NCBI RefSeq assembly: GCF_024502345.1
Contig: NZ_JALDNN010000001.1
Source: Escherichia coli
GTDB taxonomy: Bacteria > Pseudomonadota > Gammaproteobacteria > Enterobacterales > Enterobacteriaceae
Direction: 5' to 3' (one strand)
Length of the DNA stretch: 64,000 bases
The position numbers and the translations under genes were made by a program. Position 1 is the first letter of the stretch. Each line of letters begins with the position of its first letter. This document shows positions 3,888-64,000 of the stretch, in pieces. The notes under the pieces are model-generated. The model ran no database searches and had not been told where the DNA came from. It worked only from the letters and a program-made list of their open reading frames with translations.

Positions 3888-4166
<279 letters not shown>

Positions 4167-4209
4167 TCTTATTCAGCCTGACTGGTGGGAAACCACCAGT
4201 CAGAATGTG

Positions 4210-39117: not shown

Positions 39118-39204
39118 GCCCGGATGGTGGAATCGGTAGACACAAGGGATTTAAAATCCCTCGGCGTTCGCGCTGTGTGGGTTCAAGTCCCACTCCGGGT
39201 ACCA
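39118..39204 (+). tRNA. leuZ: tRNA-Leu (UAA anticodon), class II tRNA with long variable arm; integration site of the downstream island
   Basis: GCCCGGATGGTGGAATCGGTAGACACAAGGGATTTAAAATCCCTCGGCGTTCGCGCTGTGTGGGTTCAAGTCCCACTCCGGGTACCA. Confidence 0.9.
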
Positions 39205-39245
39205 TGGGAAACATCAGAATAATCAAAGCAATAAGCAGTGTCGTT

Positions 39246-39269
39246 AAACCACCTCCGGGTGGTTTTTTT
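39246..39269 (+). terminator. Rho-independent terminator of the glyW-cysT-leuZ operon
   Basis: AAACCACCTCCGGGTGGTTTTTTT hairpin plus T-run. Confidence 0.8.
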
Positions 39270-39445
39270 GTGCCTGAAATTCATGTCCTGTGCATATCCT
39301 GTGCTCACGGGGTGCGATGAGCTGCAATCTCCAGCCTGGCAATGACGAATCGAACGTGTCGCCTCCAGCATAGAGAACCAGGCCGCTTTGCCTGTTTTCC
39401 GGTACGCTTCCGGGAAGGGGGGCCTGCTGAGCAAGCTGTAATGCT

Positions 39446-40186
39446 CTAGCCACCCTGAGTACAAAGTTGCTTAATTCGTGCAATCACCTCATCTCTGTAC
39501 TTCTGGTGTCCGCGCATAGCCCGTGGATGGGCAATTCTGAAACAGATTGCATTACCTGTTTTGAACTCCCATAGCTTCCCCGGAATGACTGAAGAAGTCT
39601 CATAGCCGCCCAGCTCAGTAAGCACCTGTTTTATGATGTAGTCTGTTCTCCGGGCTCCAGATGCAAAGATGATGAAATCAGGCTCAAGGTGTTTAATTTG
39701 TACCGCCAGCAGCTTCAGCGAGGCTAATATGACTTCCTGCACTTCATTTTGAGGGCGATTGAGAGGGGTCAGTCCGTCGTAATCCCACGCCAGTAGATTG
39801 GCATACACGATTGCCTGGGGAAGAATATTAAGCTCCCGGGCCAGCCTGAAATGATATTGCGTGAAGCGGCTACGTGATTTGAGGTTGGTGGTGCCATCAT
39901 TTTGTACCGGAAGATGATTCCTGTAACGATCTACAGCTTCTTCAACCACCTGCCCGATGGTGACGTCAGGTATAAGTCCCAACACCCGTGATATCGTATT
40001 CTTACCATTCAGCGTATTCCAGCCTGCGGTTTCACGTCCAACCAGCATGATTTTTATCGGTGAATGCCAGTATTCTTCAAACGGCACGGGTAAAAAGACG
40101 CCTGAGTATTTATCTTCATTCAGGTTAAATGACTGGGCGTCAACTTCCTGTAATATCCGTTTGTACGCGTCTAATAGCTTTTCCAT
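39446..40186 (-). CDS. Island-encoded hypothetical protein, possibly a divergent uracil-DNA-glycosylase-superfamily protein
   Basis: 246-aa ORF between leuZ and the integrase; weak resemblance to UDG motifs (IMLVGRETAG; C-terminal IAHPRAMRG); assignment tentative. Confidence 0.45.
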   Translation of the reverse strand: MEKLLDAYKRILQEVDAQSFNLNEDKYSGVFLPVPFEEYWHSPIKIMLVGRETAGWNTLNGKNTISRVLGLIPDVTIGQVVEEAVDRYRNHLPVQNDGTTNLKSRSRFTQYHFRLARELNILPQAIVYANLLAWDYDGLTPLNRPQNEVQEVILASLKLLAVQIKHLEPDFIIFASGARRTDYIIKQVLTELGGYETSSVIPGKLWEFKTGNAICFRIAHPRAMRGHQKYRDEVIARIKQLCTQGG

Positions 40187-40236: not shown

Positions 40237-41484
40237 ATGATATCAATCAGATACATGAGGATAAATATGCAAAAATCCTTCCGATTCACCAATTCATCCA
40301 TCAAAGCCCTTCCGGCAAACACAGATACCCGATCTACAGAGCTTGAGGTATCAGATACCGAGGTCATAGGCCTCAAATGTCTCTCAGGTCGAACGGGTAA
40401 CAAACGTTTCCTCCTGCGCTACACATTCCACGGTACCAAAAAAAGTATCAGTATTGGCAGATTCCCTGAAATCGATGTGGGGACAGCCCGTCAGATAGCT
40501 CGCCGTCATAAGGAGGCGATTGCACTTGGAAATGACCCCAAGGCAGAGCGCGATAATTATCGTGCGATGCCAACGCTTAGTGAGTTTTTTCACCTGACCT
40601 ATGTTCCGTTCATCAAGCGCCATAAAAAGTCCTGGGATAAGGATGTTCAGCGTTTCACGCAATACATTGAACCTCGTCTGGGGAAGATACGTTACTGCGA
40701 TCTCAGGGCCAGAGAGATACAACAGGTGCTGTTTGACATGCTGGAGGGGCGTATTCACGGGCAGCAATATGCGCCGTCTACCTGTAACAGAGCCCTTGCT
40801 ATTCTGAAAACGATGGGGCGTTATGCGTTGCGACAGGATGTGCTGGAAAAGAATGAAGCCGATAAGATCCCTTTACTGAAAGAGAATAATCAGCGGACGC
40901 GCTTTTTTGATGCTGATGAGATCAGGCGCATTCTTGACGCTGCTACCCAATATCCCAACAAAGCTGCCGGGGGATTGATAGCCATGTTGTTGTTAACCGG
41001 TACACGCAAATCAGAAATGCTTAATGTCAGGCATGAACATATCGACCGGGCCAATCGTACTCTGTTCATTCCTTATACAAAAAATGGTCGCAGTCGGACG
41101 GTATATCTAAGCGATGCAGCATTATCGATTATTGATGCTATCCCACGAGTTGGCAGTAATCCGTATCTGTTCGCCATTAAGGATAATGGAAAACCGATAT
41201 CGGAACCCCGATGGGCATATGAAAAAATACTGGCACAGTGCGGTATAGACAAGAATGAAGTCTGTTTTCACACCACACGTCATTCTGTTGCCTCTTTACT
41301 GGTTTCGAGTGGTCAATTCAGCCTGTATGACGTTAAAGCACAACTGGCGCATGCCAGTATTCAAAGTACGGAGCGCTACGCGAAATTGACACCAGAGCGT
41401 ATGCGTCAGACCGGGCAGGGCGTAACTGACCTTCTTTTGAACACCGTTACTGCCGGTAACAATGATGATTTTAGCACCCCTTGA
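40237..41484 (+). CDS. int: P4-type tyrosine recombinase / integrase (probable start MQKSFRFTNSSIKALP at about 40267)
   Basis: C-terminal catalytic region with HTTRHSVASLL and LAHASIQSTERYAKL; immediately next to a tRNA gene. Confidence 0.85.
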   Translation: MISIRYMRINMQKSFRFTNSSIKALPANTDTRSTELEVSDTEVIGLKCLSGRTGNKRFLLRYTFHGTKKSISIGRFPEIDVGTARQIARRHKEAIALGNDPKAERDNYRAMPTLSEFFHLTYVPFIKRHKKSWDKDVQRFTQYIEPRLGKIRYCDLRAREIQQVLFDMLEGRIHGQQYAPSTCNRALAILKTMGRYALRQDVLEKNEADKIPLLKENNQRTRFFDADEIRRILDAATQYPNKAAGGLIAMLLLTGTRKSEMLNVRHEHIDRANRTLFIPYTKNGRSRTVYLSDAALSIIDAIPRVGSNPYLFAIKDNGKPISEPRWAYEKILAQCGIDKNEVCFHTTRHSVASLLVSSGQFSLYDVKAQLAHASIQSTERYAKLTPERMRQTGQGVTDLLLNTVTAGNNDDFSTP

Positions 41485-41844: not shown

Positions 41845-42216
41845 ATGAAATTTGTCTCGAACTGGCAAGACCTGCCGTCGCTCCTTCTTCCGGAGTCAGT
41901 AATGAGTCTGTTGAAAACAGAGCTGGTACTCCCATTTGAAGATGAATACTCTGCAATGAGTTTCTGGGATGAAGTCGGGGTGACATTAATATATGTCGAG
42001 CCCGATGATGTACCTGAAGATATTAAAGCGCAGGTATTAAATGTGATTCATCAGTTAATTGCAAATCCAGAATTTGTAGTCCGTCTGACAGATGACTATT
42101 ACCTGATGCTTTCTGTTACGGAAGATAACGGGAACGGTATTTATCTGTTATTTCACCCCGATTGCCCTCTGAAGGGTATTGATTTATTAATTTCTATGGC
42201 CGAATCACGCTATTAA
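41845..42216 (+). CDS. Hypothetical acidic protein
   Basis: 123-aa ORF with plausible SD; first of three co-oriented island genes. Confidence 0.45.
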   Translation: MKFVSNWQDLPSLLLPESVMSLLKTELVLPFEDEYSAMSFWDEVGVTLIYVEPDDVPEDIKAQVLNVIHQLIANPEFVVRLTDDYYLMLSVTEDNGNGIYLLFHPDCPLKGIDLLISMAESRY

Positions 42217-42241
42217 ACACAAGCAAAACCTGGAACGCAAA

Positions 42242-42775
42242 ATGAGTAAATCAAAATTAGTTAAAAATAATGTTGAGTCAGTTTCGAAGGAGATTAAAAA
42301 TGAGGCAGAGGTTATTCATGAAAATCTCAGTGCAGATGAACAAACATTATCTGATATAAAAGACTATCAGTTGCTCATTGAAACAGGCCAGGCAGAAAAA
42401 ATCAGTCCTAAGGCAAGTGGTATTCTGACATGGCAACTGGCGATATCAGAGGTGGACAATGAACTTTATCTTCGTCTGGTGGCAAATGGCTGTGGAGGGT
42501 TGTTCTCTAAGGACTGGATCTCACTTTCTAAGATTGCAACTGTTCTGGAAACACAACCTGCTACCGGCTTCTCATCCGGAGTATTCAGGCCGCTATTCAA
42601 AGGGGCAAGCGCCAACAATGCAGGTTTTCTGGCTGCTGTTTTACGCTCCCCGGATATATGTCTGCTGGAGGCACATCCAGAGAAGTTATTTACTCATGTA
42701 TTATACCCGGACTGGAGGGAGCGGTTGAATAAACTTAATACGATCAGTAGCCAGGGAAAGATTACAGAGGATTAA
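42242..42775 (+). CDS. Hypothetical protein
   Basis: 177-aa ORF, 25 bp after the preceding gene. Confidence 0.45.
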   Translation: MSKSKLVKNNVESVSKEIKNEAEVIHENLSADEQTLSDIKDYQLLIETGQAEKISPKASGILTWQLAISEVDNELYLRLVANGCGGLFSKDWISLSKIATVLETQPATGFSSGVFRPLFKGASANNAGFLAAVLRSPDICLLEAHPEKLFTHVLYPDWRERLNKLNTISSQGKITED

Positions 42776-42847: not shown

Positions 42848-43282
42848 ATGCAAACCCAATATGCCTTAAAACAGGCAGGATTAACTCTGCCTGTTACTAA
42901 AGAATTTCAGCAGCATATTACTACTCTTCTGGCAAATCAGGTTTTACAAAAAATAACTGAGGCAGTGGTTATTAATTTCCGCGATCCGGACTACAGTGCA
43001 GAATCCGGGGGCTTTCATCCCGTTGAAATACGGTTTATCCGTAAGAATAATGAATGGTATTTTGATTATGTCACAGATTTTAGTTATATGGGGCGTGTCT
43101 ACCCTGAGCTGGAAAAAGAAATTGATTTTTGCTGGTCGGGGAATTATGTCTTCCATTATCTGATTGGGGATATTTCACTGGCAGCAGAGAGGAATGAACT
43201 CTGGTCTCTGTGGGAGCGTAATTTTATGGAGTATCTCTCTATGGGGATTTACCGGGTAACGGTAACTGTGGAAAGTTGTTGA
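42848..43282 (+). CDS. Hypothetical protein
   Basis: 144-aa ORF, co-oriented. Confidence 0.45.
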   Translation: MQTQYALKQAGLTLPVTKEFQQHITTLLANQVLQKITEAVVINFRDPDYSAESGGFHPVEIRFIRKNNEWYFDYVTDFSYMGRVYPELEKEIDFCWSGNYVFHYLIGDISLAAERNELWSLWERNFMEYLSMGIYRVTVTVESC

Positions 43283-44772: not shown

Positions 44773-45675
44773 TTACGGGGCGTTACTTGGCTGGGTGTAA
44801 CGTTTCAGTGCGGATTGTATATCTTCAGCAAGTTGTTGACGGATTGAGGCCGGTTGTATTACTTCGACATCCGGTATCCAGTATTTCATTAAAGGCATTA
44901 TCTGATCTGTGTGTGTTACACGTGATATCACCAGTAAATCGCCAGACCGGGAAGTATGAATTATTTCCTGTCCTGGCAATAGATGACGGTGGGTAAACCA
45001 CGGAGCAACATGTGCGGAAACTGAAATAAGAACTTCGATAAGGTCTTCGCTATACCAGATACCATCTGTCTTTTCTATTTTTTCATTAATTTCGGGGATT
45101 ATCCTGAAAGAGATATTACTCATGCAAACGTCTTTGACAGATGAGATAACAAAGCTTTTTAATGTACTGTCATGGGCGGCAGCGAGATACCACAATCCGT
45201 TGTCATTAACCAGCCTGTATGGCTCAACAGCCCGAAACTCTTTATCTTTGTAATTAAAATTTACTTTCTTCTGTGACAGGATGGCATCGGATAATACATT
45301 CAGAATTGACATGAATGATCCGCAGTTTTCGTATGGACGTTGTTTTATCAGAAACGGGTTGTTTTTCGTGTTACCTAACAAAATACTCAGTAGTCTGTCA
45401 TCCCAGCGAGGGAACAGCCCTTCAATACCCAGGATGCGCGTGAAATGACGTAAATCAGCATTGCTGCGTTGACCGAGAACACCGTCAGACAGGCGATAGC
45501 GACCATTTTGTCGAATCAGATTAAGATAGGACAGGCGCTGAGTAAGATCACGACGGATAGTTTTTTCGCAAACGTTAAATTCCTCAGATAACTCCCGGAC
45601 GGCTAGTGACTCACCATTGTTCAGGCGAGTTAATATCAATCCGAGTCGATATCCAAGTTTATCGTGCTTACCCAT
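44773..45675 (-). CDS. HTH + WYL-domain transcriptional regulator (BrxR/CapW-like, defence-island regulator family)
   Basis: 300-aa ORF; N-terminal DeoR-like HTH ([22 protein letters not shown]), central WYL-type segment ([10 protein letters not shown]). Confidence 0.65.
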
Positions 45676-46429: not shown

Positions 46430-49093
46430 TCAGACTGGAAGACAGAATGTCGGATATTTACGGGCTATGATATCCATCAGTGACTTCATTCGCGGTGTTA
46501 CAGAACTAAATTTCATTTGGGGTATTTTTGCTCTTACCGCATTTTTTACATCAGTCACCGTTACTGAATAGCCTTCTGACGTCAGCCATTCAGCAACCTC
46601 TTTACAGGAATAACTTTTTTTATCTTTCAGCATCAGCCCCCATTGGCACTGAGTCAGCGCCCGGAGAAATAGTCTGACTAAAATATCATCACTACGTTTG
46701 CTTCCGACTTTTAGTTTCATATCAGAAAACACCGTCCGGCAATAGAGAAAATCACACCAGTCATCCCAGTCAGCCAGGGTCTTCAGTGTATGCGTTTGCC
46801 GCCAGTCGTCGAAAAGGGAGCGCTGCTGCAGAGCCTCTTCCATATTATCCCATGGGCGGGAAAACATCAGTAAATGCCCTTCATTCATGGCGGGCTGTAC
46901 GGGCTGGCGTTTGAAATCGAATTCCAGATTAAGACGGATATCCTGTTCCCGGGATACCAGATCGCTTTCCGACAGCCACATCTCACGCGTTGATATCAAC
47001 GTACTTCGGGATAAAGTCTGACCGGGTAAACGATTAAGGTAAAGATCTACCATATAGTCGTTATAGTCACTGCGTGGAATATCGGCAGGAGGTTTGACGC
47101 CAGCCCTGGCATGAACAACAGGTTTTCCCTGAATAGCTCTATAGGTTAACTGCCCCCGGGTTTTCATGGCGATAAGCTGGCTGACTTCATGCTTACATGT
47201 CAACATTGATGAACCCGGATCAACAATATCGCACAGCGACTGGAAGCGGGAAGACAGTGGACCGCTCATGTTTATCTTGTTAAGTGGGCAATTTGTCAAA
47301 AAGCCATCGGTTGTGACGCTGACAACCGATGAATCAGAAGGCAAAGCATTCATGAGTTCCCCGGCAACGGCGCGGATAAATCCCGTTACATGCGCAGCAA
47401 AGAATGGCTGAGTAACCGATGATGGTGGGAGGGATCTGTTTAATCCACGGGCAGTATCAAAGGCGGTTTTGGCGCGAAGGCCCTGAGCAAGTTTGCCATA
47501 AAGCGAGTTGCCAATTTCTTTCCAGAATTTCTCCTCCAGAGAACCTTTAATATGGCGATTACGGTTCTCACGGACCTGTTGAACAAAGGGAAGAAACACC
47601 GATGTTGATTCGCTGTTATGTGGGGAGGTGTCACAGATCCAGGGGACGATGATCCCATTATGGATCGTCATCTCTGCCCCGAGCGACAGAGCAAGTTCGA
47701 TTTCAGGTGCCGTTGCCCATGATTCGCCACTTAATGGAAAGAATAACCCATATTGATCGGTCCGAACCGGCAGGCTGGGATAGGGAACTGATTCCGGGAA
47801 CCGAAATGTGACAAGCGCAAATCCCATTACATGCCCACAGTAATCGTCCGGATTTTTACTGAGGCGGATGTTCCCGTAATCGGGTGTGAGGATATCTAAT
47901 AGCCCGGTGGTATACGCTCCAGCCAGATCGTAGTCATACCAGTGATCAGACGGTGTAACCCCCATCATAAAACACTCATTGCGTCCGCCGTGGTAACAGT
48001 TGATCGGGAACGTTTCAAACAACTCTCTTGAAGGAACACTGGCGGGGTTTTTAATCGTCCGGAATGCCTGTTTCTCCGTGAGCCAGAGTTCACGGGTTTT
48101 AATGTGTGTCCCAAGGCAGACTTCAGGAGACATATTGTTTTCTTTAAGTGTTTTGGTGAACCGTGAAACTGCCATCGCCCCGATGGTGGCGGGGACACGA
48201 TCAATCATCAGCTCCCGGGCGCAAAAATTGCGAACCTGTAAAGCATAACGAACCGCAATCTCGGCATCCCGCAGAGCATAGGCTTCAAACCCTGCTCTGT
48301 CGCCCAGAAGATATTCACGCATATTGGTTATGGAATAAGGTGCAGGAATGGTGAGTTTGGGAAGACCCAGTAATTCACCACATTCAGCCAGACCCATACC
48401 CCCGGGAGTGATAAGCAGTGTATCGATGAAAGCTACGTTACTGCAACGCGGAGGGGAAGTTCGTTTGTCAAACATTATCTGTTCAGTCTTTACGCGACGT
48501 TCCTGCTGTTCATCAAAATCGATACCGTAACGATTTTTGAAGCTGCTGACAGTACCGCGTATTCCTTTCAGAAGAATTTTGTAGTCTGACCAGAAATTGG
48601 CAAAGGAGGCGATATCCGCACGAATGAAATGCGCATATATATTAATAATACCGGGCCATTTTGTAATCACACCCGTTTCAAGAAGCGGTGTAATCGTTTG
48701 ACAGAGAAATTCCTTAAAAGACAGCCGGGATTTTTTCTGTGAGTCAGGTGGATAGATAATGTTCGATATACCTGTATTATCGGGTAAGATAACATAACTC
48801 TGATATGACAGAATATCATTCTGTCGTGTTTCAGGGTTGAAAACATATTCGGTATCAAAACCGATATGGAGTGTCAGGTCACTTGAAATAACAGATACTT
48901 TTTTTGATGCAGGTGGTATCACAGGATAATCATCAAGCGTTTTAGGTCTTTTACGATTGAGCGCTGGCTCTGAAGTCACGGACTGATACCCCGAGGCGGC
49001 AGCGAGGATGTCCTGCAAATTATTGCTCATAGTTAACTCCGAAAAAATGCCGGGAGCTGTGTCCCGGCATAAAGAATCAGGATTTAATAACAT
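46430..49093 (-). CDS. Family B DNA polymerase of the primer-independent (piPolB) type, pipolin hallmark gene
   Basis: 887-aa ORF; Exo I FDTE; motif B KEIGNSLYGK; motif C-like VTTDGF; KTRG in place of the canonical KxY motif (IAMKTRGQLTY). Confidence 0.8.
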   Translation of the reverse strand: MLLNPDSLCRDTAPGIFSELTMSNNLQDILAAASGYQSVTSEPALNRKRPKTLDDYPVIPPASKKVSVISSDLTLHIGFDTEYVFNPETRQNDILSYQSYVILPDNTGISNIIYPPDSQKKSRLSFKEFLCQTITPLLETGVITKWPGIINIYAHFIRADIASFANFWSDYKILLKGIRGTVSSFKNRYGIDFDEQQERRVKTEQIMFDKRTSPPRCSNVAFIDTLLITPGGMGLAECGELLGLPKLTIPAPYSITNMREYLLGDRAGFEAYALRDAEIAVRYALQVRNFCARELMIDRVPATIGAMAVSRFTKTLKENNMSPEVCLGTHIKTRELWLTEKQAFRTIKNPASVPSRELFETFPINCYHGGRNECFMMGVTPSDHWYDYDLAGAYTTGLLDILTPDYGNIRLSKNPDDYCGHVMGFALVTFRFPESVPYPSLPVRTDQYGLFFPLSGESWATAPEIELALSLGAEMTIHNGIIVPWICDTSPHNSESTSVFLPFVQQVRENRNRHIKGSLEEKFWKEIGNSLYGKLAQGLRAKTAFDTARGLNRSLPPSSVTQPFFAAHVTGFIRAVAGELMNALPSDSSVVSVTTDGFLTNCPLNKINMSGPLSSRFQSLCDIVDPGSSMLTCKHEVSQLIAMKTRGQLTYRAIQGKPVVHARAGVKPPADIPRSDYNDYMVDLYLNRLPGQTLSRSTLISTREMWLSESDLVSREQDIRLNLEFDFKRQPVQPAMNEGHLLMFSRPWDNMEEALQQRSLFDDWRQTHTLKTLADWDDWCDFLYCRTVFSDMKLKVGSKRSDDILVRLFLRALTQCQWGLMLKDKKSYSCKEVAEWLTSEGYSVTVTDVKNAVRAKIPQMKFSSVTPRMKSLMDIIARKYPTFCLPV

Positions 49094-49715
49094 TTACTAC
49101 AGATTTGAAAATATCGGTTTTGTGTGATTCATCATCTACATGGATAAAGGAAACGAGTTTCCTGCCTGCTTTAATCAGGATACCGCGTTGCGTCTTTTCC
49201 ACAGACGGGGTAACGTGTGCAGATAACAGACAATGTTCATGTAAATGAAGAAACTTTTTTGAGGCGTAGCCGCCATGTAATCGGGCTTGAATGTCAAGAT
49301 ACATATCATCAAGAGAACCGGGTTCTCCTGATTCACTCAATACCGGATAACCCTTCTTATCAAAGAGGTTAAGGATAGATTTACTATCATGTTCGAACAG
49401 GGTAACACCGTAAATGTATTTCATTCGAAAGGTGAGGGAATCGGTGGTGTAGACCTCCTCCTGACGATTGAAATTTTTGAGACGCCTGGCTAATTCATTA
49501 AAAACAGCACGAGCAGTAGCCGTGTCCTGCAGGGTGTAGGTATAAAGTACGAAGCCATCTGTGCCGATGAGCTTTACTAAGTTGTCCATAATCGTGATAG
49601 CGAGAACTAATGCAAAGGACAGATATTTTTCATCGTTGTCTACAGCTGTGTTTGCTGCTTCAGGAAGAATGTTCAGTGCATTATTAGCATTATTTGCTGT
49701 GTTCTTAGTAACCAT
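49077..49715 (-). CDS. Hypothetical protein, overlapping and probably translationally coupled to piPolB
   Basis: 212-aa ORF; stop overlaps the piPolB start; start overlaps the alpA-like stop. Confidence 0.5.
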   Translation of the reverse strand: MVTKNTANNANNALNILPEAANTAVDNDEKYLSFALVLAITIMDNLVKLIGTDGFVLYTYTLQDTATARAVFNELARRLKNFNRQEEVYTTDSLTFRMKYIYGVTLFEHDSKSILNLFDKKGYPVLSESGEPGSLDDMYLDIQARLHGGYASKKFLHLHEHCLLSAHVTPSVEKTQRGILIKAGRKLVSFIHVDDESHKTDIFKSVVNVIKS

Positions 49716-49905
49716 TTATATCACCTTTAAGTTTGTTTTGACGATGTGCATTTTCCCACTCAACAATATCATCAAGAGAGAATCGTATAGCCCGCCCAAT
49801 TCTGATGAAGGGCGGGAGTTTTCCTGGGTTGCGCGATATATCTGACGCAACCGTGGATGCGGAAAGATTAAATCTTTCTGCAAACTGCTTAATGGTTAAA
49901 TACAT
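49705..49905 (-). CDS. AlpA-family HTH protein (excisionase / transcriptional regulator)
   Basis: 66-aa ORF, MYLTIKQFAERFNLSASTV...; typical partner of integrases in islands. Confidence 0.65.
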   Translation of the reverse strand: MYLTIKQFAERFNLSASTVASDISRNPGKLPPFIRIGRAIRFSLDDIVEWENAHRQNKLKGDINGY

Positions 49906-50055: not shown

Positions 50056-51186
50056 TCATTTTTTCGTGTCATAACTTTCTATGACCTGAGAAACCACTGC
50101 GTGCGATGTCGCTGCATTGTGAAAAGCGTAGCGACGGGTCGCCGTGAGTGAATGGTGATTTAGCAGATGGGAAGCGATTGCAATATCCCCGGTCGCCTGT
50201 AGTACCCGGGTGGCAAAGGTACGGCGCAGGTCATGCATCCGCAGGTTATCAATGTTGGCATCCCGACAAATACGGGCAAAGGTTGCACGCGGATATGCCA
50301 GAGGGCGGGCATTGTCGGTTAGTTGTGGAAAAATGTAAGTTTTGCTGAGCATCAGGTCTTGCTGGCACTGGACAACTGCAATGGCTGGAGGTGCAAGTGG
50401 GCAGGTGAAAGGGTGTCCGGACTTTGTATCAGGCAGTATGAGTTGATGCATATCCGGGTGCCAGTACTCCCATTTCAGGGTACATACCTCACCAATACGC
50501 ATCCCCGTATAAAGAGCAAGCAATATAGAATCAGCTGCCGGTGTTTGCAGCGCTGTTGCCGCGTCAATAAAGCGCGGGATTTCTGTCGCTGATAGTGTGC
50601 GATAGCGAATGTTATTTTCTTTCAGATAGCGGACATGTGACATCGGGGAATGTGTGATCCATCCAGCACGTACTGCCAGAGAGCATATTTTGGACAATAT
50701 TGCGAGGATACGGTTTACTGTTGACGGACGTAATTTTTCCCGTAAGCCAGCAGCATATTGTTCTAGTTCCCCTGCCGTGATGTCGCGAAGTTGCCGCTTG
50801 CCCCAGAACGGGCGAACGTAGAGGTTGAGTTTTGACAACTCTGACTGAGGACTCTTTTTATACAACTGCAAATCCGGTAGCCACAGGTCATTGATGGCCT
50901 GTTCCACAGTGAATCGACGGGACTGAACCGCAAGACGATTTTTATCAGCAAGCAGTTTCATCACATGCTGACGGGCATCCTCAACGCAGAGCTGAGGGAA
51001 CTGACCCAGGGTTTCATATATACGCTGATTGTTTATAGTGGCACGAAAGGCCAGCGTGATCCGATTGGGATACACCAGAGCACGCAGGTTTTGGCAGTGA
51101 ATATCACGGTATTCCTGACAACCCGTGAGGGGATGTGGAAGTTGGTGAAGTGATTTGTTGCTGAAACGCAGATCCAGAATAGGCAT
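50056..51186 (-). CDS. Second tyrosine recombinase (XerC/D-like integrase)
   Basis: C-terminal catalytic motifs HDLRRTFATR, LLNHH, TATRRYAF. Confidence 0.8.
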   Translation of the reverse strand: MPILDLRFSNKSLHQLPHPLTGCQEYRDIHCQNLRALVYPNRITLAFRATINNQRIYETLGQFPQLCVEDARQHVMKLLADKNRLAVQSRRFTVEQAINDLWLPDLQLYKKSPQSELSKLNLYVRPFWGKRQLRDITAGELEQYAAGLREKLRPSTVNRILAILSKICSLAVRAGWITHSPMSHVRYLKENNIRYRTLSATEIPRFIDAATALQTPAADSILLALYTGMRIGEVCTLKWEYWHPDMHQLILPDTKSGHPFTCPLAPPAIAVVQCQQDLMLSKTYIFPQLTDNARPLAYPRATFARICRDANIDNLRMHDLRRTFATRVLQATGDIAIASHLLNHHSLTATRRYAFHNAATSHAVVSQVIESYDTKK

Positions 51187-54505: not shown

Positions 54506-56029
54506 ATGAACGACAAAATCAGTCAGGACACGATCAACAAAGCCCTGTGGGCCGCGTGTGATACGTTCCGTGGCACCATCAGTGCTGATACCTATAAAGA
54601 CTTTATCCTTACCATGCTATTCCTTAAGTACATTTCGGATGTCTGGCAGGATCACTACGACGAATATAAAGTGCAATATGGTGATGAGCCGGAACTGATT
54701 GAAGCGATGATGGCGAACGAGCGCTTCGTGTTGCCGAAAAGCGCCAGTTTCTATGCGTTGTACGAGCGACGTCATGAGCCGGGCAACGGTGAGCGTATCG
54801 ATCAGGCGCTGCATGCGATTGAAGAAGCCAACGGCACCAAACTGAAAGATGCCGGGAAAAGTGTCTTCCAGGATATTTCGTTTAACACTGACCGTCTGGG
54901 CGAAGAAAAACAGAAGAACACCATCCTGCGTCAGTTGCTGGAAGACTTTGCCGGTGAAGATCTTAACCTGAAGCCAAGCCGTGTCGGTACGCTGGACGTT
55001 ATCGGTAATGCTTACGAATATCTGATCAAAAACTTTGCTGCCAGCGGTGGGCAGAAAGCCGGGGAATTCTATACCCCACCGGAAGTTTCGGATCTCATCG
55101 CTGAACTGCTTGATCCTCAACCCGGTGATACAATCTGCGACCCGGCCTGTGGTTCCGGTTCGTTGCTAATGAAGTGCGGGCGTAAAATTGTCTCAGGACA
55201 TGATAGCCGCAACTATGCGTTGTTCGGTCAGGAAGCGATTGGCTCCACGTGGTCGCTGGCGAAAATGAACATGTTCCTGCACGGCGAAGATAACCACAAA
55301 ATCGAGTGGGGCGATACCATTCGTAACCCGAAGTTGTTGGATAAAAACGGCGACCTGATGCTGTTTGATATCGTGACCGCAAACCCACCGTTCAGCCTGG
55401 ATAAGTGGGGCCATGACGAGGCCGAGAATGATAAGTTTGGGCGTTTCCGTCGCGGTGTACCGCCGAAGACTAAAGGGGATTACGCCTTTATCTCGCATAT
55501 GATCGAAACCCTGAAACCGGGAACGGGTCGTATGGGCGTAGTGGTGCCGCACGGTGTGCTGTTCCGTGGCTCCAGCGAAGGCAAAATTCGTCAGAAGCTG
55601 ATTGATGAAAACCTACTCGATGCGGTGATTGGCCTGCCTGAAAAACTGTTCTACGGTACGGGTATTCCTGCTGCAATTCTGATTTTTAAAAAGCAGAAAG
55701 TGGATGACAAGGTGCTGTTTATCGACGCCAGCCGTGAATTTAAGGCAGGTAAAAACCAGAACCAGCTCAGCGCAGAAAACATCGAGAAAATCGTCAAGAC
55801 CTACCGTGATGGCGATAGCGTCGAGAAATATGCCTACCTTGCCAGCCTGAAGGAGATTCAGGACAACGATTACAACCTCAATATTCCGCGCTATGTCGAT
55901 ACCTTTGAAGAAGAAGAAGATATCGATTTACTTGCCGTTCGTGCTGAGCGGGAGGAATTGAAAGCGGAACTGGCGAAATTGGAAACGCAGATGGCGGGTT
56001 ATCTGGAGGAGCTGGGTTATGGTGCCTAA
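54506..56029 (+). CDS. hsdM: Type I restriction-modification system methyltransferase subunit HsdM
   Basis: 507-aa ORF; SAM-binding motif DPACGSGSLL and catalytic NPPF (TANPPFSLDKW). Confidence 0.9.
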   Translation: MNDKISQDTINKALWAACDTFRGTISADTYKDFILTMLFLKYISDVWQDHYDEYKVQYGDEPELIEAMMANERFVLPKSASFYALYERRHEPGNGERIDQALHAIEEANGTKLKDAGKSVFQDISFNTDRLGEEKQKNTILRQLLEDFAGEDLNLKPSRVGTLDVIGNAYEYLIKNFAASGGQKAGEFYTPPEVSDLIAELLDPQPGDTICDPACGSGSLLMKCGRKIVSGHDSRNYALFGQEAIGSTWSLAKMNMFLHGEDNHKIEWGDTIRNPKLLDKNGDLMLFDIVTANPPFSLDKWGHDEAENDKFGRFRRGVPPKTKGDYAFISHMIETLKPGTGRMGVVVPHGVLFRGSSEGKIRQKLIDENLLDAVIGLPEKLFYGTGIPAAILIFKKQKVDDKVLFIDASREFKAGKNQNQLSAENIEKIVKTYRDGDSVEKYAYLASLKEIQDNDYNLNIPRYVDTFEEEEDIDLLAVRAEREELKAELAKLETQMAGYLEELGYGA

Positions 56030-57266
56030 GGGGTGGAAACGAGTACCGATTAAGGATGTGTGCGAGTCTATAATCGATTGCGTAAATAAAACAGCTCCAG
56101 TTGTTGATTATGAAACTCCCTTTAAGATGATTCGTACCACGAATGTACGTAATGGAAGGGTTAATACTGAAGACGTCAGATATGTGACTGAAGACACTTA
56201 CCTGCAATGGGTTCGACGCGGAAAACCGCAAGTAGGTGATATCATCTTTACACGTGAAGCACCTGTAGGAGAAGCAGGTGTCCTGCAAGATGCTGAAGGT
56301 ATTTTCCTCGGGCAAAGAACGATGATGTATCGAGCTGATACCTGCCTTTCAGATAACTATTTCTTGTTCTACTCGTTATCAAGTCCCTTCTGCCAGAAAC
56401 AAATTGAAGATTTTAGCAATGGCGGTACTGTAGCTCATATGAGAGTTCCAGATTGCGGTGAGATATTGATCAATCTACCGCCTTTCCTCGAACAAAAGAA
56501 AATCGCCCAAATCCTGTCAACCTGGGATAAGGCGATTTCGGTGACGGAAAAGCTTCTCACCAACAGCCAGCAGCAGAAAAAAGCCCTGATGCAGCAATTG
56601 CTTACTGGGAAGAAACGCTTGCTGGATGAGAATGGGACAAGGTTTTCTGAAACTTGGAAATTATATGCCTTATCGAAATTATTTCAGAGAGTTACGACTA
56701 AAAACAATGGAAAAAGCAACAATGTTGTAACCATTTCTGGACAACATGGTTTGATTAAACAGGAAGACTTTTTCAAGAAAACAGTCGCATCAGATACCCT
56801 TGATGGTTATTTCTTATTAAAAAAAGGGCAGTTTGCTTACAATAAAAGTTACTCTAATGGTTATCCGATGGGTGCAATAAAAAGATTAAATCGATATCCA
56901 GAGGGAGTAGTAACAACTCTGTATATATGTTTTGAACTTACTACACCCAAAAAATCATGTGGTGACTATTGGGAGCATTATTTTGAGTCAGGGCTTTTGA
57001 ATAACAGTTTGTCTCAAATTGCTCATGAAGGTGGACGGGCTCATGGCTTGCTAAATGTAAAACCTTCGGACTTCTTTTCATTAAAAGTTGCGGTTCCTGG
57101 CTTTGAAGAGCAACAAAAAATCGCATTAGTTCTGTCCGCTGCCGACACCGAAATCTCCACACTGGAGAAAAAACTCGCCTGCCTGAAAGACGAGAAGAAA
57201 GCCTTGATGCAGCAACTGCTGACCGGGAAACGTCGGGTGAAAGTGGATGAGGCGGTTGCCGTATGA
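56019..57266 (+). CDS. hsdS: Type I restriction-modification system specificity subunit HsdS
   Basis: 415-aa ORF with two target-recognition domains separated by conserved repeats (KKALMQQLLTGKKRLL and KKALMQQLLTGKRRVK); overlaps the hsdM end. Confidence 0.85.
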   Translation: MVPKGWKRVPIKDVCESIIDCVNKTAPVVDYETPFKMIRTTNVRNGRVNTEDVRYVTEDTYLQWVRRGKPQVGDIIFTREAPVGEAGVLQDAEGIFLGQRTMMYRADTCLSDNYFLFYSLSSPFCQKQIEDFSNGGTVAHMRVPDCGEILINLPPFLEQKKIAQILSTWDKAISVTEKLLTNSQQQKKALMQQLLTGKKRLLDENGTRFSETWKLYALSKLFQRVTTKNNGKSNNVVTISGQHGLIKQEDFFKKTVASDTLDGYFLLKKGQFAYNKSYSNGYPMGAIKRLNRYPEGVVTTLYICFELTTPKKSCGDYWEHYFESGLLNNSLSQIAHEGGRAHGLLNVKPSDFFSLKVAVPGFEEQQKIALVLSAADTEISTLEKKLACLKDEKKALMQQLLTGKRRVKVDEAVAV

Positions 57267-57946
57267 AACTGACGAAAAGCGGTCCACTGACTGACCGGGA
57301 AATCGACTGGCTGGAAGAAATATTAATGAAGTATGGAATGGATGATTCTGTACTCTGTTTCTCTGAGCTGGATGGATTGCTGACGGCGATTTTATCAGGT
57401 CCAAATATGGTTTCACCCAATATCTGGCTGAGTGCTATTTGGGGAGGAGGCGATTATCATCCGAAATGGTCATCTGAGAGAGAGATGGAGCGTTTTGTCA
57501 GTCTGTGTTTTCAGCATATGAACGATATCGCTGGTTGCCTTTATGACGCCCCTGAACTGTTTGAGCCGATTTTCAATGAGCGTGAGGTAAAGGGGGAAAA
57601 ATATACCATTGTGGAAGAGTGGTGTTTTGGTTATATGAAAGGAAAGTCACTGGATGACTGGTCTGGTCTTCCCGGTGAGTTACGGCCTTCTCTGGAAGTG
57701 ATCGCTCTTCATGGCGTGGAGAAGAATTTTCCTGTACTTGAGAAAATGACCGGAGAGCAGTTTGAGAAAAGTATTTCCCTTATTCAGCCTGCTGCACTGG
57801 CACTTTATCAGTACTGGTTGTCAGTGAGAATGTCAGAGGCATCATCCCGGCCTGTTCCAGTGAAGGGGGCAGAAAACATGCCCGGGCGAAATGACCCGTG
57901 TCCGTGTGGCAGCGGTAAAAAATTTAAGAAGTGCTGTCTGCATTGA
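57263..57946 (+). CDS. YecA-like (UPF0149) protein with C-terminal SEC-C zinc motif, embedded in the Type I R-M operon
   Basis: 227-aa ORF; C-terminal GRNDPCPCGSGKKFKKCCLH; start overlaps the hsdS stop (ATGA). Confidence 0.8.
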   Translation: MKLTKSGPLTDREIDWLEEILMKYGMDDSVLCFSELDGLLTAILSGPNMVSPNIWLSAIWGGGDYHPKWSSEREMERFVSLCFQHMNDIAGCLYDAPELFEPIFNEREVKGEKYTIVEEWCFGYMKGKSLDDWSGLPGELRPSLEVIALHGVEKNFPVLEKMTGEQFEKSISLIQPAALALYQYWLSVRMSEASSRPVPVKGAENMPGRNDPCPCGSGKKFKKCCLH

Positions 57947-57995
57947 TGAATCTTCATGTGACCAGTAGCGAGTAGCGCCAGAAAGAAAAGGATTA

Positions 57996-60900
57996 ATGAT
58001 GAACCAGACGTACACGCCAAAATTCCAGGAAGAATACAGCGCCAAAATTCCGGCACTGACGTTACTGACCAGCCTCGGCTGGACGTTTTTATCTCCGAAA
58101 CAGATTATGGATTACCGGGGCTATAAACAGGATGAGGTGGTGCTGCGTCCGGTTCTGCGTGAAGAGCTGTCGAAGCGTTCCTTTATGGCGGGTGGCAAAA
58201 CCTGCCAGTTATCGGAAAAAGCACTGGATAACCTGATATCACAGGTCTGTTCTCCGGCGCTGAATGAAGGGCTGCTCAAAGCCAATGAACGGATGTATAA
58301 CCATCTGCTCTACGGTATCGCCGTCACGGAGTTTGTCGATGGCAAGAAGGTCAACCCCACCATTGCGCTGATCGACTGGGAACATCCGGAAAATAACCAG
58401 TTCCACTTTACTGAAGAATTTACGGTATTGCGGTCAGGTGGTGTTGAAACCCGGAGGCCAGATATTGTCTGCTTTGTTAATGGTATCCCGCTGGCTGTTA
58501 TTGAAGCGAAAAGCCCGGCTGGTCATGGCAAGAAAGGGCCAACCATTGACGAGGGGATATCCCAGAGTATCCGCAACCAGTTCAACGATGAAATCCCGCA
58601 GCTGTTTGTCTACAGCCAGTTATTACTTTCGATTAACGGTCATGACGGGCGCTACGGTACATGCCATACGCCAATGAAATTCTGGGCGGCATGGCGCGAA
58701 GAAGATATTACCGATGCGCAGATGTATGCTCTGCGCAACCATCCTTTATCGACTGAACAAATTCATGCGTTGTTTGATCATCGTCCATCAGCCGATCTCA
58801 ACTGGTACCAACAGTTAATCGCCGCCGGTGAACTGGCTGTCAGTGGACAGGACAAACTGCTCATCAGCCTGCTTTCGCCGGAACGTCTGCTGGAGATGAC
58901 CCGCTTCTTCACTCTGTTTGATAAAAAGACCGGGAAAATTGTCGCCCGCTATCAGCAGGTGTTCGGTATTAAAAGACTGCTGGAGCGCATCAGTACCCGC
59001 AGACCCGATGGGGGCAGGGAAGGTGGTGTTATCTGGCATACCACCGGCTCTGGCAAATCGTACACCATGGTGTTCCTCAGCAAGGCGCTGATTCTTCATG
59101 ACAGCCTGAAGCGGTGTCGTATCGTGGTGGTGACGGACCGTATCGATCTTGAAGAACAGCTCAGCAGTACCTTTGCATCCGGCGGCGAGTTGGCCGGGAA
59201 AAAAGACAAAGCCAATGCAATGGCGACATCCGGGCAGATGCTGGCGAAACAGATTGGCTCCGGTAAAGAACGCATCATTTTCACCCTAATCCAGAAATTT
59301 AATTCAGCGACAAAACTTCCTGAATGCGTCAATACCAGCCCCGATATCATCGTTCTGGTTGATGAAGGACACCGTAGCCAGGGTGGTGAGAACCATGTGC
59401 GAATGAAACTGGCACTGCCGAACGCCGCCTTTGTGGCATTTACTGGTACGCCATTGCTAAAAGAAGATAAGACCACCAATAAATTCGGACCGATTGTCCA
59501 CGCTTATACCATGCAGCGAGCGGTAGAAGATAAAGCCGTTACACCTTTGCTGTATGAAGAACGTATTCCCGACCTTGAGGTTAACGATCGGGCAATAGAT
59601 GCCTGGTTTGATCGTATTACCGATGGGTTAAGCGAAGCGCAAAAAGCCGACCTGAAGCGTAAATATGCCCGTAAAGGTGAGGTTTATAGTGCAGATGATC
59701 GCATCCGTCTGATCGCACTCGATATCGCCACGCACTTCTCGAAGAATATTGATGAGGGACTGAAAGGCCAGCTTGCCTGCGACAGCAAGATTTCCGCCAT
59801 CAAATATAAAAAGTATCTTGATGAAGCCGGGTTGTTTGAGTCAGCTGTAGTTATCAGCCCGCCGGATACCCGGGAAGGGAATACCGAAGTGGATGAAAGC
59901 AAACTGCCGGAAGTGACGAAATGGTGGAAGGATAATGTCGGCACGCAGGATGAGTCTGTGTATACCCGTAATGTCATCAGTCGTTTCGATACCGATGAGA
60001 AGCTCAAATTGCTGATAGTCGTTGATAAACTGCTCACCGGGTTTGATGAGCCGAAGAATACCGTGCTGTATATCGACAAGCCGCTTAAGTCCCACAACCT
60101 TATCCAGGCGATTGCGCGGGTGAACCGACTGCATCCACTAAAAAAGTTCGGTCTGCTGATTGATTATCGCGGTATTCTGGCTGAGCTGGACACGACTATC
60201 GGCAAATATCAGGACCTCGCCTCCCGAACTCAGGGCGGATACGATATCAAAGATATTGACGGGCTGTACAGCGCCATGAGCTCTGAATACAAGCGCCTGC
60301 CGCATCTGTATAACCAGCTGTGGGCCATATTTGCCGGTGTTAAAAACAAAAATGATACTGAGCAGTTACGTGCGGTACTGGTGCCTAAAATGGAAGAACG
60401 TGACGGAGAGATGGTCGATATCCATCAGAAAACCCGTGATGATTTCTTCGAGGCGTTAACGGCCTTTGCCGGATGCCTGAAAGTGGCACTGCAGTCCGCT
60501 ACCTTCTTCACCGACAAGAGCTTTACGGAACAAGACCGAAATCTCTATAAAGAAACCGTAAAACAGATGTCCAGCCTGCGCCAGTGGGCGATGCAGGTAA
60601 GTGGAGAGCAGGTCAATTATGACGACTACGCTGAGCAGGTGAAAAAACTGCTGGATAAGCATGTCACCGGCGTTGAAGTTCGTGAACCGGATGGCGTGTA
60701 TGAAGTCGGTAAAATGGGCAAGAGCGAAAAGCCCGAAGAGTGGGACAACAATAAAACCCGCAATGAAACCGACATCATTAAAACCCGTGTGACAAAGATG
60801 ATTGAGCAGGAATTGCGTGATGACCCGTATGCTCAGGAGGCATTTTCAAAACTCCTGCGTATGGCTATCGAAGAGGCTGAAAAACTGTTTGACCATCCGC

Positions 60901-61283: not shown

Positions 61284-62035
61284 GTGAAAAAGAATCGCCA
61301 TCAATGAAAGCGTTACGCATTGTCTATGGTGATGAGGTCATCGTCGTACAGTGTGTTCCGCGTCAGGTCGTAAAGGGCAGGGTGCTCATTAAGGTTTATC
61401 CGGACTGCCGGGTTGTGGCCTCTGTACCGCCTGAAACACCGGAGCACGAGGTATTGTCTGCGCTGAAAAAACGTGGGCGCTGGATATACCAGCAACTGCG
61501 TGATTTCAGGGAGCAACAGATACACATTGTTCCGCGTCAGTATGTCAGCGGAGAAAGCCATTATTATCTCGGTAAGCAATATCAGTTGAAAGTGACAGAA
61601 GACGCTACTGTGCCGCAACGAGTGAAAATGTTGCGTGGACGTCTGGAAGTGACTGTCAGACACAAATCGGCAGAAAAGATTAAAGCCTTGCTGGCTGAAT
61701 GGTATCGGGAACGTGCCAGAGATGTTTTTCAGCGCAGGCTTGATTTACTGATTCCGCAGACCCTTTGGGTCAGTGAGCGTCCTCCGATACGTCTGCGGGC
61801 GATGCAAACGCAATGGGGCAACTGTTCAGCAAAAGGCTGTCTGACCCTGAATCCATGGCTGGTTAAGGCATCTTCAGAATGTATCGATTATGTTTTGCTA
61901 CATGAGTTATGCCATGTGGCTGAGCACAACCACAGCGAGGAGTTTTACCGTCTGATGGGACAGGTTATGCCGGGCTGGGAAAAGGTTAAGAAGCGACTGG
62001 ATGGTATGGCTGGGATGTTGTTGGCAGATATGTAA
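61280..62035 (+). CDS. YgjP-like (DUF45 / M48 family) zinc metallopeptidase, coupled to hsdR
   Basis: 251-aa ORF with HExxH motif (LLHELCHVAEHNH); start overlaps the hsdR stop (ATGA). Confidence 0.75.
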   Translation: MSEKESPSMKALRIVYGDEVIVVQCVPRQVVKGRVLIKVYPDCRVVASVPPETPEHEVLSALKKRGRWIYQQLRDFREQQIHIVPRQYVSGESHYYLGKQYQLKVTEDATVPQRVKMLRGRLEVTVRHKSAEKIKALLAEWYRERARDVFQRRLDLLIPQTLWVSERPPIRLRAMQTQWGNCSAKGCLTLNPWLVKASSECIDYVLLHELCHVAEHNHSEEFYRLMGQVMPGWEKVKKRLDGMAGMLLADM

Positions 62036-62060
62036 CTTATCAATATGAGTTCTTAAGAGT

Positions 62061-63932: not shown

Positions 63933-64000
63933 CAAAGTTGGGGTGTTAATTAATGTGTAATGGCATCATGATTTTTAAAAGGAGGTTGAATTGCGTTCTG

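What the first reader, a model, noticed from the sequence alone, without database searches (positions are those of the whole stretch)
46430..49093. Family-B DNA polymerase with KTRG motif (primer-independent PolB type) in an alpA-orf212-polB operon
The 887-aa ORF carries ordered PolB motifs: Exo I (FDTE), motif B (KEIGNSLYGK), a TTDG-type motif C, and KTRG where canonical PolBs have KxY. That is the signature reported for piPolBs, which can start DNA synthesis de novo. The gene overlaps a 212-aa unknown ORF, which in turn overlaps the AlpA-like gene, suggesting a translationally coupled replication/excision module.
Basis: partly seen in the sequence, partly recalled or inferred. Interest (0 to 1): 0.75.

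Follow-up and report, generated by a model that had tools for sequence, protein, structure and literature searches.

The report
Known E. coli pipolin primer-independent polymerase
This gene is the already-described self-priming family-B DNA polymerase (piPolB) of an E. coli "pipolin" island inserted at a leucine tRNA gene, so the identification is right but not new; the only fresh points are a terminator hairpin and a small partner gene that sit just in front of it in many bacteria.

Summary
The ORF is real and intact, and it is a piPolB. All seven residues mutated in the characterised E. coli enzyme (D59, E61, D368, K613, H614, K623, R625) fall at the same numbers if translation starts at the second ATG (49030, 866 aa). 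A confident AlphaFold model is closest to phi29 DNA polymerase. The neighbours reproduce the published gammaproteobacterial pipolin core next to tRNA-Leu: IntSXT-type integrase, DUF2787, WYL regulator, piPolB, excisionase, IntP2. The gene occurs in 295 of 5,426 complete E. coli genomes. This is already known (Cell Rep 2017; Sci Rep 2020; NAR 2024).

The "translationally coupled alpA-orf212-polB operon" is only partly right. alpA and orf212 overlap by 11 nt. The polB/orf212 overlap depends on an upstream ATG with no Shine-Dalgarno sequence. The likely start lies 46 nt after orf212, behind a terminator-like hairpin.

Two points were not found in the pipolin papers I could search. First, a GC hairpin, usually with a T-run, sits directly before piPolB in many lineages. 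Second, orf212 is probably an enlarged member of a ~70-residue protein family encoded immediately upstream of piPolB; 6 of 6 independently retrieved members are so placed.

The parts
39118..39204 (+). tRNA-Leu(UAA), last gene of a Gly-Cys-Leu tRNA cluster; integration target of the element
   Evidence: ARAGORN and Rfam. The literature gives tRNA-Leu between pgsA and yecA as the E. coli pipolin site.
39149..39276 (.). tRNA-proximal att copy: the 3' 56 nt of tRNA-Leu plus 72 nt downstream
   Evidence: Repeated at 93.8% identity over 130 nt between hhe and yecA in the ~98% collinear strain C1. No second copy lies inside the window.
39446..40186 (-). 246-aa ORF at the tRNA-proximal end, function unverified; the literature places a type-4 UDG-like gene here
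   Evidence: ORF; PHROG of unknown function; no Pfam hit; literature statement.
40237..41484 (+). Tyrosine recombinase next to the tRNA (IntSXT-type by position)
   Evidence: NCBIfam XerC/XerD-like hits. Annotated as site-specific integrase in strain C1. 87-93% identical copies in related pipolins.
41845..42775 (+). Two orphan core genes (123 aa and 177 aa)
   Evidence: Conserved with the polymerase in Citrobacter, Buttiauxella-type, Photobacterium and Marinomonas loci.
42848..43282 (+). DUF2787 core gene
   Evidence: RefSeq annotation in strain C1. PF10980 in independent pipolin loci. Named a core gene in the NAR 2024 paper.
44773..45675 (-). WYL-domain transcriptional regulator (HTH_DeoR + WYL + WCX)
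   Evidence: Pfam families on the same gene in contigs carrying the identical polymerase; RefSeq annotation.
46430..49030 (-). piPolB gene, 866 aa (stop codon 46430-46432, start ATG 49028-49030)
   Evidence: RefSeq start. Residue numbering matches the characterised enzyme.
49031..49093 (-). 21-codon upstream extension of the maximal ORF, probably untranslated leader
   Evidence: No SD before ATG 49093. The 887-aa form is absent from the protein collection. The stretch holds the hairpin, T-run and SD.
49037..49040 (-). Shine-Dalgarno GGAG, 6 nt before the piPolB ATG
   Evidence: Sequence read directly.
49042..49070 (-). Intrinsic-terminator-like element: 9-bp stem ATGCCGGGA/TCCCGGCAT with a 6-nt loop (49047-49070), followed by TTTTT (49042-49046)
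   Evidence: Top hit of the terminator scan. The gap folds at -16.1 kcal/mol, z = -4.5. Identical in E. coli variants and Citrobacter. Analogous hairpins occur in 16 other lineages.
49077..49715 (-). orf212, an orphan protein with three predicted beta-sheet-plus-helix modules; probable enlarged member of the piPolB-adjacent small-protein family
   Evidence: Enterobacterales only, two subtypes; model, pLDDT 76; family link.
49705..49905 (-). Excisionase / AlpA-like HTH protein (66 aa), overlapping orf212 by 11 nt
   Evidence: TIGR01764 below cutoff; PHROG 66 excisionase; PF12728 HTH_17; sequence.
50056..51186 (-). Second tyrosine recombinase (IntP2-type by position, upstream of the excisionase)
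   Evidence: NCBIfam hits; RefSeq annotation; synteny in other pipolins; literature.
54506..62035 (+). Cargo module: type I restriction-modification genes (hsdM, hsdS, hsdR) with a YecA-family gene and an M48 peptidase
   Evidence: ORFs. RefSeq annotation of the 97-98% identical stretch in strain C1.

Best explanation
The ORF is the piPolB gene of a pipolin, an integrative island inserted at tRNA-Leu in the E. coli chromosome.

What the protein is (inferred from sequence and model): a family-B DNA polymerase with an N-terminal 3'-5' proofreading exonuclease and a phi29-like polymerase core. It has the two family signatures: motif C is TTDG, with only the second catalytic Asp, and KxY is replaced by KH-X8-KTRG.

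[quoted passage not shown] K613 is important for priming.

Proposed but never shown in vivo: after excision by the element's tyrosine recombinases and excisionase, piPolB primes and copies the circular element. It may also help the host restart blocked replication.

Expression (my inference from the sequence): translation starts at ATG 49030, giving 866 aa. The gene has no recognisable promoter of its own. It lies directly behind a hairpin plus T-run that follows orf212. It would therefore be made only from transcripts that read through this terminator from the IntP2-excisionase-orf212 unit, which would keep polymerase levels low.
For: ORF and motifs.

Residue numbers D59/E61, D368, K613/H614 and K623/R625 from the paper coincide with numbering from M22.

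Family: 2,041 clusters at E<=0.001. Signature residues are invariant or nearly invariant in 62 diverse members. 49 of 62 members hit Pfam PF03175.

Context: tRNA-Leu, two tyrosine recombinases, excisionase, DUF2787, WYL regulator and type I R-M cargo, matching the published core. The gene is in 295 of 5,426 complete E. coli genomes and is always chromosomal.

Start site and terminator. No minus-strand sigma-70-like site was found between orf212 and the piPolB start, or within orf212.
Against: The E. coli protein alone gives only marginal profile hits: Pfam E=0.014, no NCBIfam family, and no PDB sequence hit even with a family profile. Homology to PolB therefore rests on transitive family evidence and a predicted fold.

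I could not obtain the reference enzyme's sequence, so identity to it is inferred from collinear numbering and from >=95% nucleotide identity among E. coli copies.

The second att copy is outside the window, and the window diverges from strain C1 after about position 62,030.

Excision was reported as negligible under standard conditions, so the replicative role is unproven.

The terminator and read-through model is purely computational. The promoter scan covers only consensus sigma-70 sites.
Confidence: 0.92

Rival explanations
1. alpA, orf212 and polB form one translationally coupled operon. In this reading polB starts at ATG 49093 and overlaps orf212 by 17 nt.
For: The maximal ORF does start at 49093 and overlaps orf212. 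All three genes are co-directional and close together. alpA and orf212 do overlap by 11 nt.
Against: There is no SD before ATG 49093, whereas GGAG precedes ATG 49030. RefSeq annotates 866 aa in all four records inspected. The 887-aa protein is absent from the protein collection. Homologues 71% identical begin at the equivalent of residues 2-4 of the 866-aa form. The 21 extra codons coincide with a stable hairpin and T-run. Conservation in the family starts only at about residue 50.
Confidence: 0.06
2. The polymerase is a protein-primed PolB (phi29/Bam35 type) from a cryptic phage or linear plasmid, and needs a terminal protein.
For: The closest solved structure is phi29 DNA polymerase. The Pfam family hit is the 'organellar and viral' PolB type. 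A gene of unknown function (orf212) sits where terminal-protein genes sit in such phages (own knowledge).
Confidence: 0.02
3. The gene is a decayed or silent remnant with no activity.
For: Excision and episomal copies were not detected in E. coli. A terminator-like hairpin sits before the gene, and no promoter of its own was found.
Against: The 2.6-kb reading frame is intact. All catalytic and signature residues are kept. The identical protein occurs in over 200 collection blocks. The gene is >=95% identical across 295 genomes, 281 of them with at least 80% coverage.
Confidence: 0.02
4. piPolB's main role is not to replicate the element. Instead it acts in trans for the host or the island, for example re-priming after DNA damage or contributing to the island's defence function.
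For: Expression of wild-type but not D368A piPolB improved survival after mitomycin C and UV. Pipolins are described as defence islands whose excision is negligible. [quoted passage not shown]
Against: The survival experiment used over-expression in a laboratory strain. The tight linkage of piPolB to integrases and excisionase across phyla fits an element-maintenance role.
Confidence: 0.3

Closest known systems
piPolB of the E. coli 3-373-03_S1_C2 pipolin (Redrejo-Rodriguez et al., Cell Rep 2017, PMC5695915)
   Same: Same species and same insertion site. Collinear residue numbering for all seven mutated residues. Same motif set: Exo I-III, Pol A, Pol B, TTDG and KH-X8-KTRG. Same gene neighbourhood.
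   Different: The exact percent identity to that allele could not be measured here. E. coli copies differ by up to about 5% at the DNA level. The cargo genes of this island differ from other strains.
Protein-primed PolBs (phi29, Bam35, PRD1 DNA polymerases)
   Different: About 11-13% identity. KTRG instead of KxY, and TTDG instead of DTDS. No terminal protein needed. About 50 disordered N-terminal residues and roughly 215 extra conserved C-terminal residues.
Gammaproteobacterial pipolins as defined in NAR 2024 (PMC11551731)
   Same: IntSXT-type integrase next to the tRNA, orphan genes, DUF2787, WYL regulator, piPolB, excisionase, IntP2, then a variable defence cargo (type I R-M here).
   Different: None in kind. 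The distal end and the second att copy lie outside the window.
Casposons and polintons (other PolB-encoding 'self-synthesising' elements)
   Same: Mobile elements that carry their own family-B polymerase.
   Different: They use Cas1 or retroviral-type integrases and primed or protein-primed polymerases. Pipolins use tyrosine recombinases and a self-priming polymerase.
Internal terminator of the rpsU-dnaG-rpoD operon of E. coli (own knowledge)
   Same: A terminator placed inside a co-directional gene string directly before a priming enzyme gene, which keeps that enzyme scarce. This is a functional analogy for the hairpin before piPolB.
   Different: No sequence relationship. The pipolin hairpin has not been tested experimentally.

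Membership tests
piPolB (primer-independent family-B DNA polymerase) | Family-B polymerase fold with an N-terminal 3'-5' exonuclease domain, closest to protein-primed PolBs | tested here: met
piPolB (primer-independent family-B DNA polymerase) | Exonuclease motifs Exo I, II and III with catalytic acidic residues | tested here: met
   D59/E61 (FDTE), D139 (HFIRAD) and Y251/D255 (YALRD). These are conserved in 55-61 of 62 relatives.
piPolB (primer-independent family-B DNA polymerase) | Polymerase motifs A (catalytic Asp) and B (Kx3NSxYG) | tested here: met
   D368 and Y373 are invariant. K504, N508, Y511 and G512 are invariant or nearly so.
piPolB (primer-independent family-B DNA polymerase) | Motif C with the first Asp substituted (TTDG-type instead of DTDS) | tested here: met
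   T573-T574-D575-G576. T574, D575 and G576 are invariant in 62 sequences. Definition.
piPolB (primer-independent family-B DNA polymerase) | [quoted passage not shown] | tested here: met
   K613-H614, eight residues, then K623-T-R625-G. K613 is invariant and R625 is present in 61 of 62. Definition.
piPolB (primer-independent family-B DNA polymerase) | TPR1 and TPR2 insertions shared with protein-primed PolBs | tested here: inconclusive
   490 of 571 phi29 residues superpose, which leaves room for both insertions. The tools gave no residue-level alignment, so I could not check them individually.
piPolB (primer-independent family-B DNA polymerase) | De novo (primer-independent) DNA synthesis | not testable with these tools
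   Shown biochemically for an E. coli enzyme with the same residue numbering. Not measured for this allele.
Pipolin (piPolB-encoding integrative element) | Carries a piPolB gene | tested here: met
   See the rows above.
Pipolin (piPolB-encoding integrative element) | Integrated at a tRNA gene and bounded by att-like direct repeats | tested here: inconclusive
   The element abuts tRNA-Leu. No second repeat lies in the window. In the ~98% collinear strain C1 a 130-nt repeat (93.8% identical) lies about 35 kb away, next to yecA.
Pipolin (piPolB-encoding integrative element) | Gammaproteobacterial core: IntSXT, DUF2787, WYL protein, and IntP2 followed by an excisionase near piPolB | tested here: met
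   for the genes. Synteny is conserved in Citrobacter, Buttiauxella-type, Aeromonas and other loci. Definition.
Protein-primed PolB (pPolB) | Canonical KxY and DTDS motifs, and an associated terminal-protein gene | tested here: not met
   KTRG and TTDG are present instead. No terminal-protein-like gene was recognised. The orf212 model resembles only generic PH-like or LytTR-like folds.

The most novel reading that the evidence does not exclude
piPolB genes across Proteobacteria sit in a conserved three-part cassette that I did not find described in the pipolin papers I could search. The first part is a gene for a small protein built from a ~70-residue beta-strands-plus-helix domain (signature LPxG...WI..D..A...PDWSxL); E. 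coli orf212 would be an enlarged, multi-module version. The second part is a GC-rich hairpin, usually a full intrinsic terminator. The third is the Shine-Dalgarno sequence and piPolB itself. In this reading the small protein is a dedicated partner or regulator of the polymerase, and the terminator gates polymerase expression. That would explain why pipolin replication is not seen under standard conditions.
Probability: 0.4. Interest if true: 0.55.

Novelty: already known. Interest (0 to 1): 0.3.

Why it matters
The polymerase itself matters because it is the only family-B polymerase group known to start DNA chains without a primer, and it is already used for whole-genome amplification. That was established in 2017, and this window adds one more copy.

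What could matter for specialists is the conserved arrangement in front of the gene. If the terminator really limits piPolB expression, and if the small upstream protein is a cofactor or regulator, then both suggest concrete experiments on an open question: when and how pipolins replicate, and what piPolB does in the cell.

Tried and rejected
- Sequence searches of the PDB with the single protein and with a 62-sequence profile found no polymerase. NCBIfam has no model for it. Pfam on the protein alone is marginal. Homology had to be shown through family members and a predicted fold.
- A search for att direct repeats inside the window found none. The second copy was found only in a related strain, and the window is not identical to that strain.
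- Rfam found nothing but tRNAs, so the leader hairpin is not a described RNA family.
- The terminal-protein idea for orf212 was considered and rejected as unsupported.
- The profile-profile comparison of orf212 with the small-protein family was weak (probability 12%), so that link is reported as probable only.
- The built-in terminator scan confirmed the hairpin in E. coli and Aeromonas L014 but missed L018 and L093.
- One literature search was badly posed and returned nothing useful. The NAR 2024 supplements are not held, so I could not check whether orf212 is one of that paper's two "orphan" core genes.
- The 246-aa ORF next to the tRNA could not be confirmed as a uracil-DNA glycosylase.
Full report
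**1. The observation**

An 887-codon ORF runs from 49093 to 46430 on the minus strand. It also contains Exo II (HFIRAD), Exo III (YALRD) and Pol A (DYDLAGAYTT). An intact frame of this length carrying seven ordered motifs is far beyond chance.

**2. Where the window comes from**

The polymerase gene is 100% identical to E. coli strain C1. It is found, always on the chromosome, in 295 of 5,426 complete E. coli genomes at >=95% identity.

The RefSeq annotation of strain C1 places the gene in an island that begins right after a tRNA-Gly/Cys/Leu cluster downstream of pgsA. The island contains:
- a site-specific integrase;
- orphan genes;
- a DUF2787 gene;
- a DUF726 gene;
- an HTH/WYL regulator;
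- the polymerase;
- a 212-aa hypothetical protein;
- a small HTH protein;
- a second tyrosine recombinase;
- a type I restriction-modification system.

The window is not strain C1 itself. It is about 98% identical over the core, differs in hsdS, lacks one cargo gene, and diverges after about position 62,030.

**3. It is a known thing**

The literature describes exactly this element.
- Redrejo-Rodriguez et al. 2017 (PMC5695915) defined piPolBs and pipolins. They purified the E. coli 3-373-03_S1_C2 enzyme and showed proofreading, strand displacement, translesion synthesis and de novo DNA priming. They defined the TTDG-type motif C and the KH-X8-KTRG motif.
- Flament-Simon et al. 2020 (PMC7385651) showed that E. 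coli pipolins sit at the Leu-tRNA gene between att repeats, and that excision is negligible under standard conditions.
- Mateo-Caceres and Redrejo-Rodriguez 2024 (PMC11551731) defined the gammaproteobacterial core (IntSXT, DUF2787, WYL, piPolB, excisionase, IntP2) plus a defence cargo.

Every element of that core is present in the window.

**4. Membership tests**

Numbering from the second in-frame Met (M22 of the 887-aa ORF) puts D59, E61, D368, K613, H614, K623 and R625 at exactly the positions mutated in the paper.

A full HMMER scan of 1.84 billion representatives found 2,041 related clusters. In an alignment of 62 full-length members 30-48% identical to the query:
- D368, Y373, K504, G512, T574-D575-G576 and K613 are invariant;
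- D59, E61, Y251, D255, N508, Y511 and R625 are nearly invariant.

On its own the E. coli protein barely touches Pfam DNA_pol_B_2 (E=0.014). However, 49 of the 62 members hit that family, the best at 4e-15. Sequence searches against the PDB found nothing.

Neither is met.

**5. The element's boundary**

The 3' 56 nt of tRNA-Leu plus 72 nt downstream (39149-39276) recur at 93.8% identity between hhe and yecA in strain C1, about 35 kb away. No second copy lies inside the window. The distal boundary of this particular island is therefore inferred, not seen.

**6. The operon claim**

alpA (49905-49705) has a GGAGG Shine-Dalgarno sequence, and its last 11 nt overlap the orf212 ATG. That part holds.

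The polB/orf212 overlap does not hold:
- ATG 49093 has no SD, whereas ATG 49030 has GGAG 6 nt upstream.
- RefSeq annotates the 866-aa form in all four records inspected.
- Gene callers on other contigs that carry the identical protein do the same.
- The exact 866-aa protein is in the protein collection, and the 887-aa form is not.
- Relatives 71% identical begin at the equivalent of residues 2-4.

The 46-nt gap reads TGA-ttcttt-ATGCCGGGA-cacagc-TCCCGGCAT-TTTTT-c-GGAG-ttaact-ATG. It is the top hit of the terminator scan. It folds at -16.1 kcal/mol with z = -4.5. It is identical in E. coli variants whose flanking codons differ. No minus-strand sigma-70-like site lies between orf212 and the start codon, or within orf212.

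The most economical reading is that piPolB is expressed by read-through of this terminator, not by translational coupling. This is an inference.

**7. The hairpin is conserved in position, not in sequence**

I fetched 80 piPolB loci from one genome per species. The order IntP2, excisionase, one ORF, piPolB recurs in Citrobacter, Buttiauxella, Intestinirhabdus, Enterobacter, Aeromonas, Marinobacter, Photobacterium, Shewanella and others.

The gap after that ORF holds a GC-rich hairpin in every case examined, usually followed by a T-run and then directly by the SD and the start codon, 16-37 nt downstream. Two Buttiauxella-group variants differ by a compensatory change in the stem, GTGTC/GACAC versus GTGCC/GGCAC.

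With my own detector:
- 20 of 43 upstream-gene-to-piPolB junctions carry a terminator-like site;
- 30 of 373 other short co-directional junctions in the same loci do (Fisher p = 1e-9);
- the figure is 19 of 27 among lineages >=35% identical to the E. coli enzyme.

All 17 gaps that I folded form a dominant hairpin, with z from -1.6 to -4.9.

Caveats:
- The loci are not phylogenetically independent, although about 17 different hairpin sequences are involved.
- The built-in scan confirms E. coli and L014 but misses L018 and L093.
- Some lineages lack the T-run.
- Terminators after genes are common in any case. What is unusual here is how close the hairpin lies to the piPolB start codon.

The words terminator, promoter and operon do not occur in the two main pipolin papers.

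**8. orf212**

orf212 has no Pfam, NCBIfam or PHROG family. Its detectable relatives are confined to Enterobacterales and fall into two subtypes about 30% identical to each other. In the same loci piPolB is 71% identical, the excisionase 58% and IntP2 78%. So it is a real gene that evolves fast.

The ORFs of 65-95 aa in the same slot of distant pipolins form a family with a ~70-residue signature.
- Iterative searches from three seeds recover 24-32 slot ORFs out of 5,333, and include E. coli-type orf212.
- 26 of 32 hits meet a strict positional criterion that only 2.1% of ORFs satisfy.
- An HMM that never saw orf212 scores it at E=0.003 in 5,643 ORFs, through two domain matches (residues 27-84 and 164-211). 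No non-slot ORF scores at E<=10.
- hhalign is weak (probability 12%) but aligns the same region in the same register.

As an unbiased check, I searched the global protein database with the family profile. It returned 36 clusters, all hypothetical and without Pfam domains. All six that I looked up lie 75-255 nt upstream of, and co-directional with, a PF03175 polymerase gene inside a pipolin core.

The family's linkage to piPolB is therefore solid. Membership of orf212 in it is probable, at about 0.7. Its function is unknown.

**9. Verdict**

The finding is a correct recognition of a known enzyme in a known element. It is already known, and its interest is low to moderate. That cassette is worth an experiment.

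Noticed in passing
window 49042-49070 (minus strand); analogous sites in L004, L006-L012, L014, L018, L020, L023, L026, L029, L033, L090-L095: A GC-rich hairpin, usually followed by a T-run, lies between the upstream ORF and the SD and start codon of piPolB in many lineages. Its position is conserved but its sequence is not. It is enriched about 6-fold over other co-directional junctions (20 of 43 versus 30 of 373).
   Followed up: yes
window 49077-49715; L016:5367-5621, L018:5529-5789, L022:5432-5716, and L090-L095 around 4001-4216: A family of small proteins (~65-95 aa, ~70-residue domain, no Pfam family) is encoded immediately upstream of piPolB across Proteobacteria. 6 of 6 members retrieved independently of the polymerase are so placed. 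orf212 is probably a multi-module member.
   Followed up: yes
L090:4369-7314, L092:4374-7310, L093:4468-7470, L094:4349-7305, L095:4361-7344: In Vibrio, Shewanella and related pipolins the piPolB is split. Residues ~53-603 lie in a 621-633-aa ORF, and residues ~607-864 in a downstream ORF (two ORFs in L094 and L095). The break falls just before the KH-X8-KTRG motif, with an ~82-85-aa ORF in between in L090, L092, L094 and L095 (a 285-nt gap without a called gene in L093). Several 50%-identity clusters of ~600-635 aa align only to residues ~50-605, which suggests a stable split rather than random decay.
   Followed up: partly
window 46430-47080 (piPolB residues ~650-866): The polymerase has about 215 residues beyond the KTRG region, ending in an all-helical domain (helices between residues 730 and 858). 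This extension is as conserved across the family as the catalytic core and has no counterpart in the 575-residue phi29 enzyme. The phrase 'C-terminal' does not occur in the main text of the 2017 paper.
   Followed up: no
window 49077-49715 compared with L006:5331-5933: orf212 diverges much faster than its neighbours. It is 30% identical between the E. coli and Buttiauxella types, where piPolB is 71%, the excisionase 58% and IntP2 78%.
   Followed up: partly
window 39446-40186 (minus strand): [quoted passage not shown] It has no Pfam hit even at E<=10, and only a PHROG of unknown function.
   Followed up: partly
window 41494-41751 (plus strand): An 85-aa ORF just after the integrase has two CxxC pairs (CPKCG ... 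CKDCG), which suggests a zinc ribbon. It is not annotated in strain C1.
   Followed up: no
window 56019-57266 and 62035-64000: The cargo differs from the closest complete genome. The hsdS gene is only partly alignable (83% identical over about 840 bases). A cold-shock-domain gene present in strain C1 is absent. Similarity to C1 ends at about 62,035, where a 623-aa ORF (62061-63932, low GC) begins.
   Followed up: no
L005:5974-8572 (Citrobacter koseri NCTC10786): The piPolB copy appears disrupted. There is a 1-nt difference near codon 9, and the match ends at residue 798.
   Followed up: no
L022 and L030 (same contig JAQTWB010000006.1, 34 kb apart): Two piPolB loci lie on one contig, with identical upstream small ORFs and hairpins. 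This may be a tandem or duplicated pipolin.
   Followed up: no
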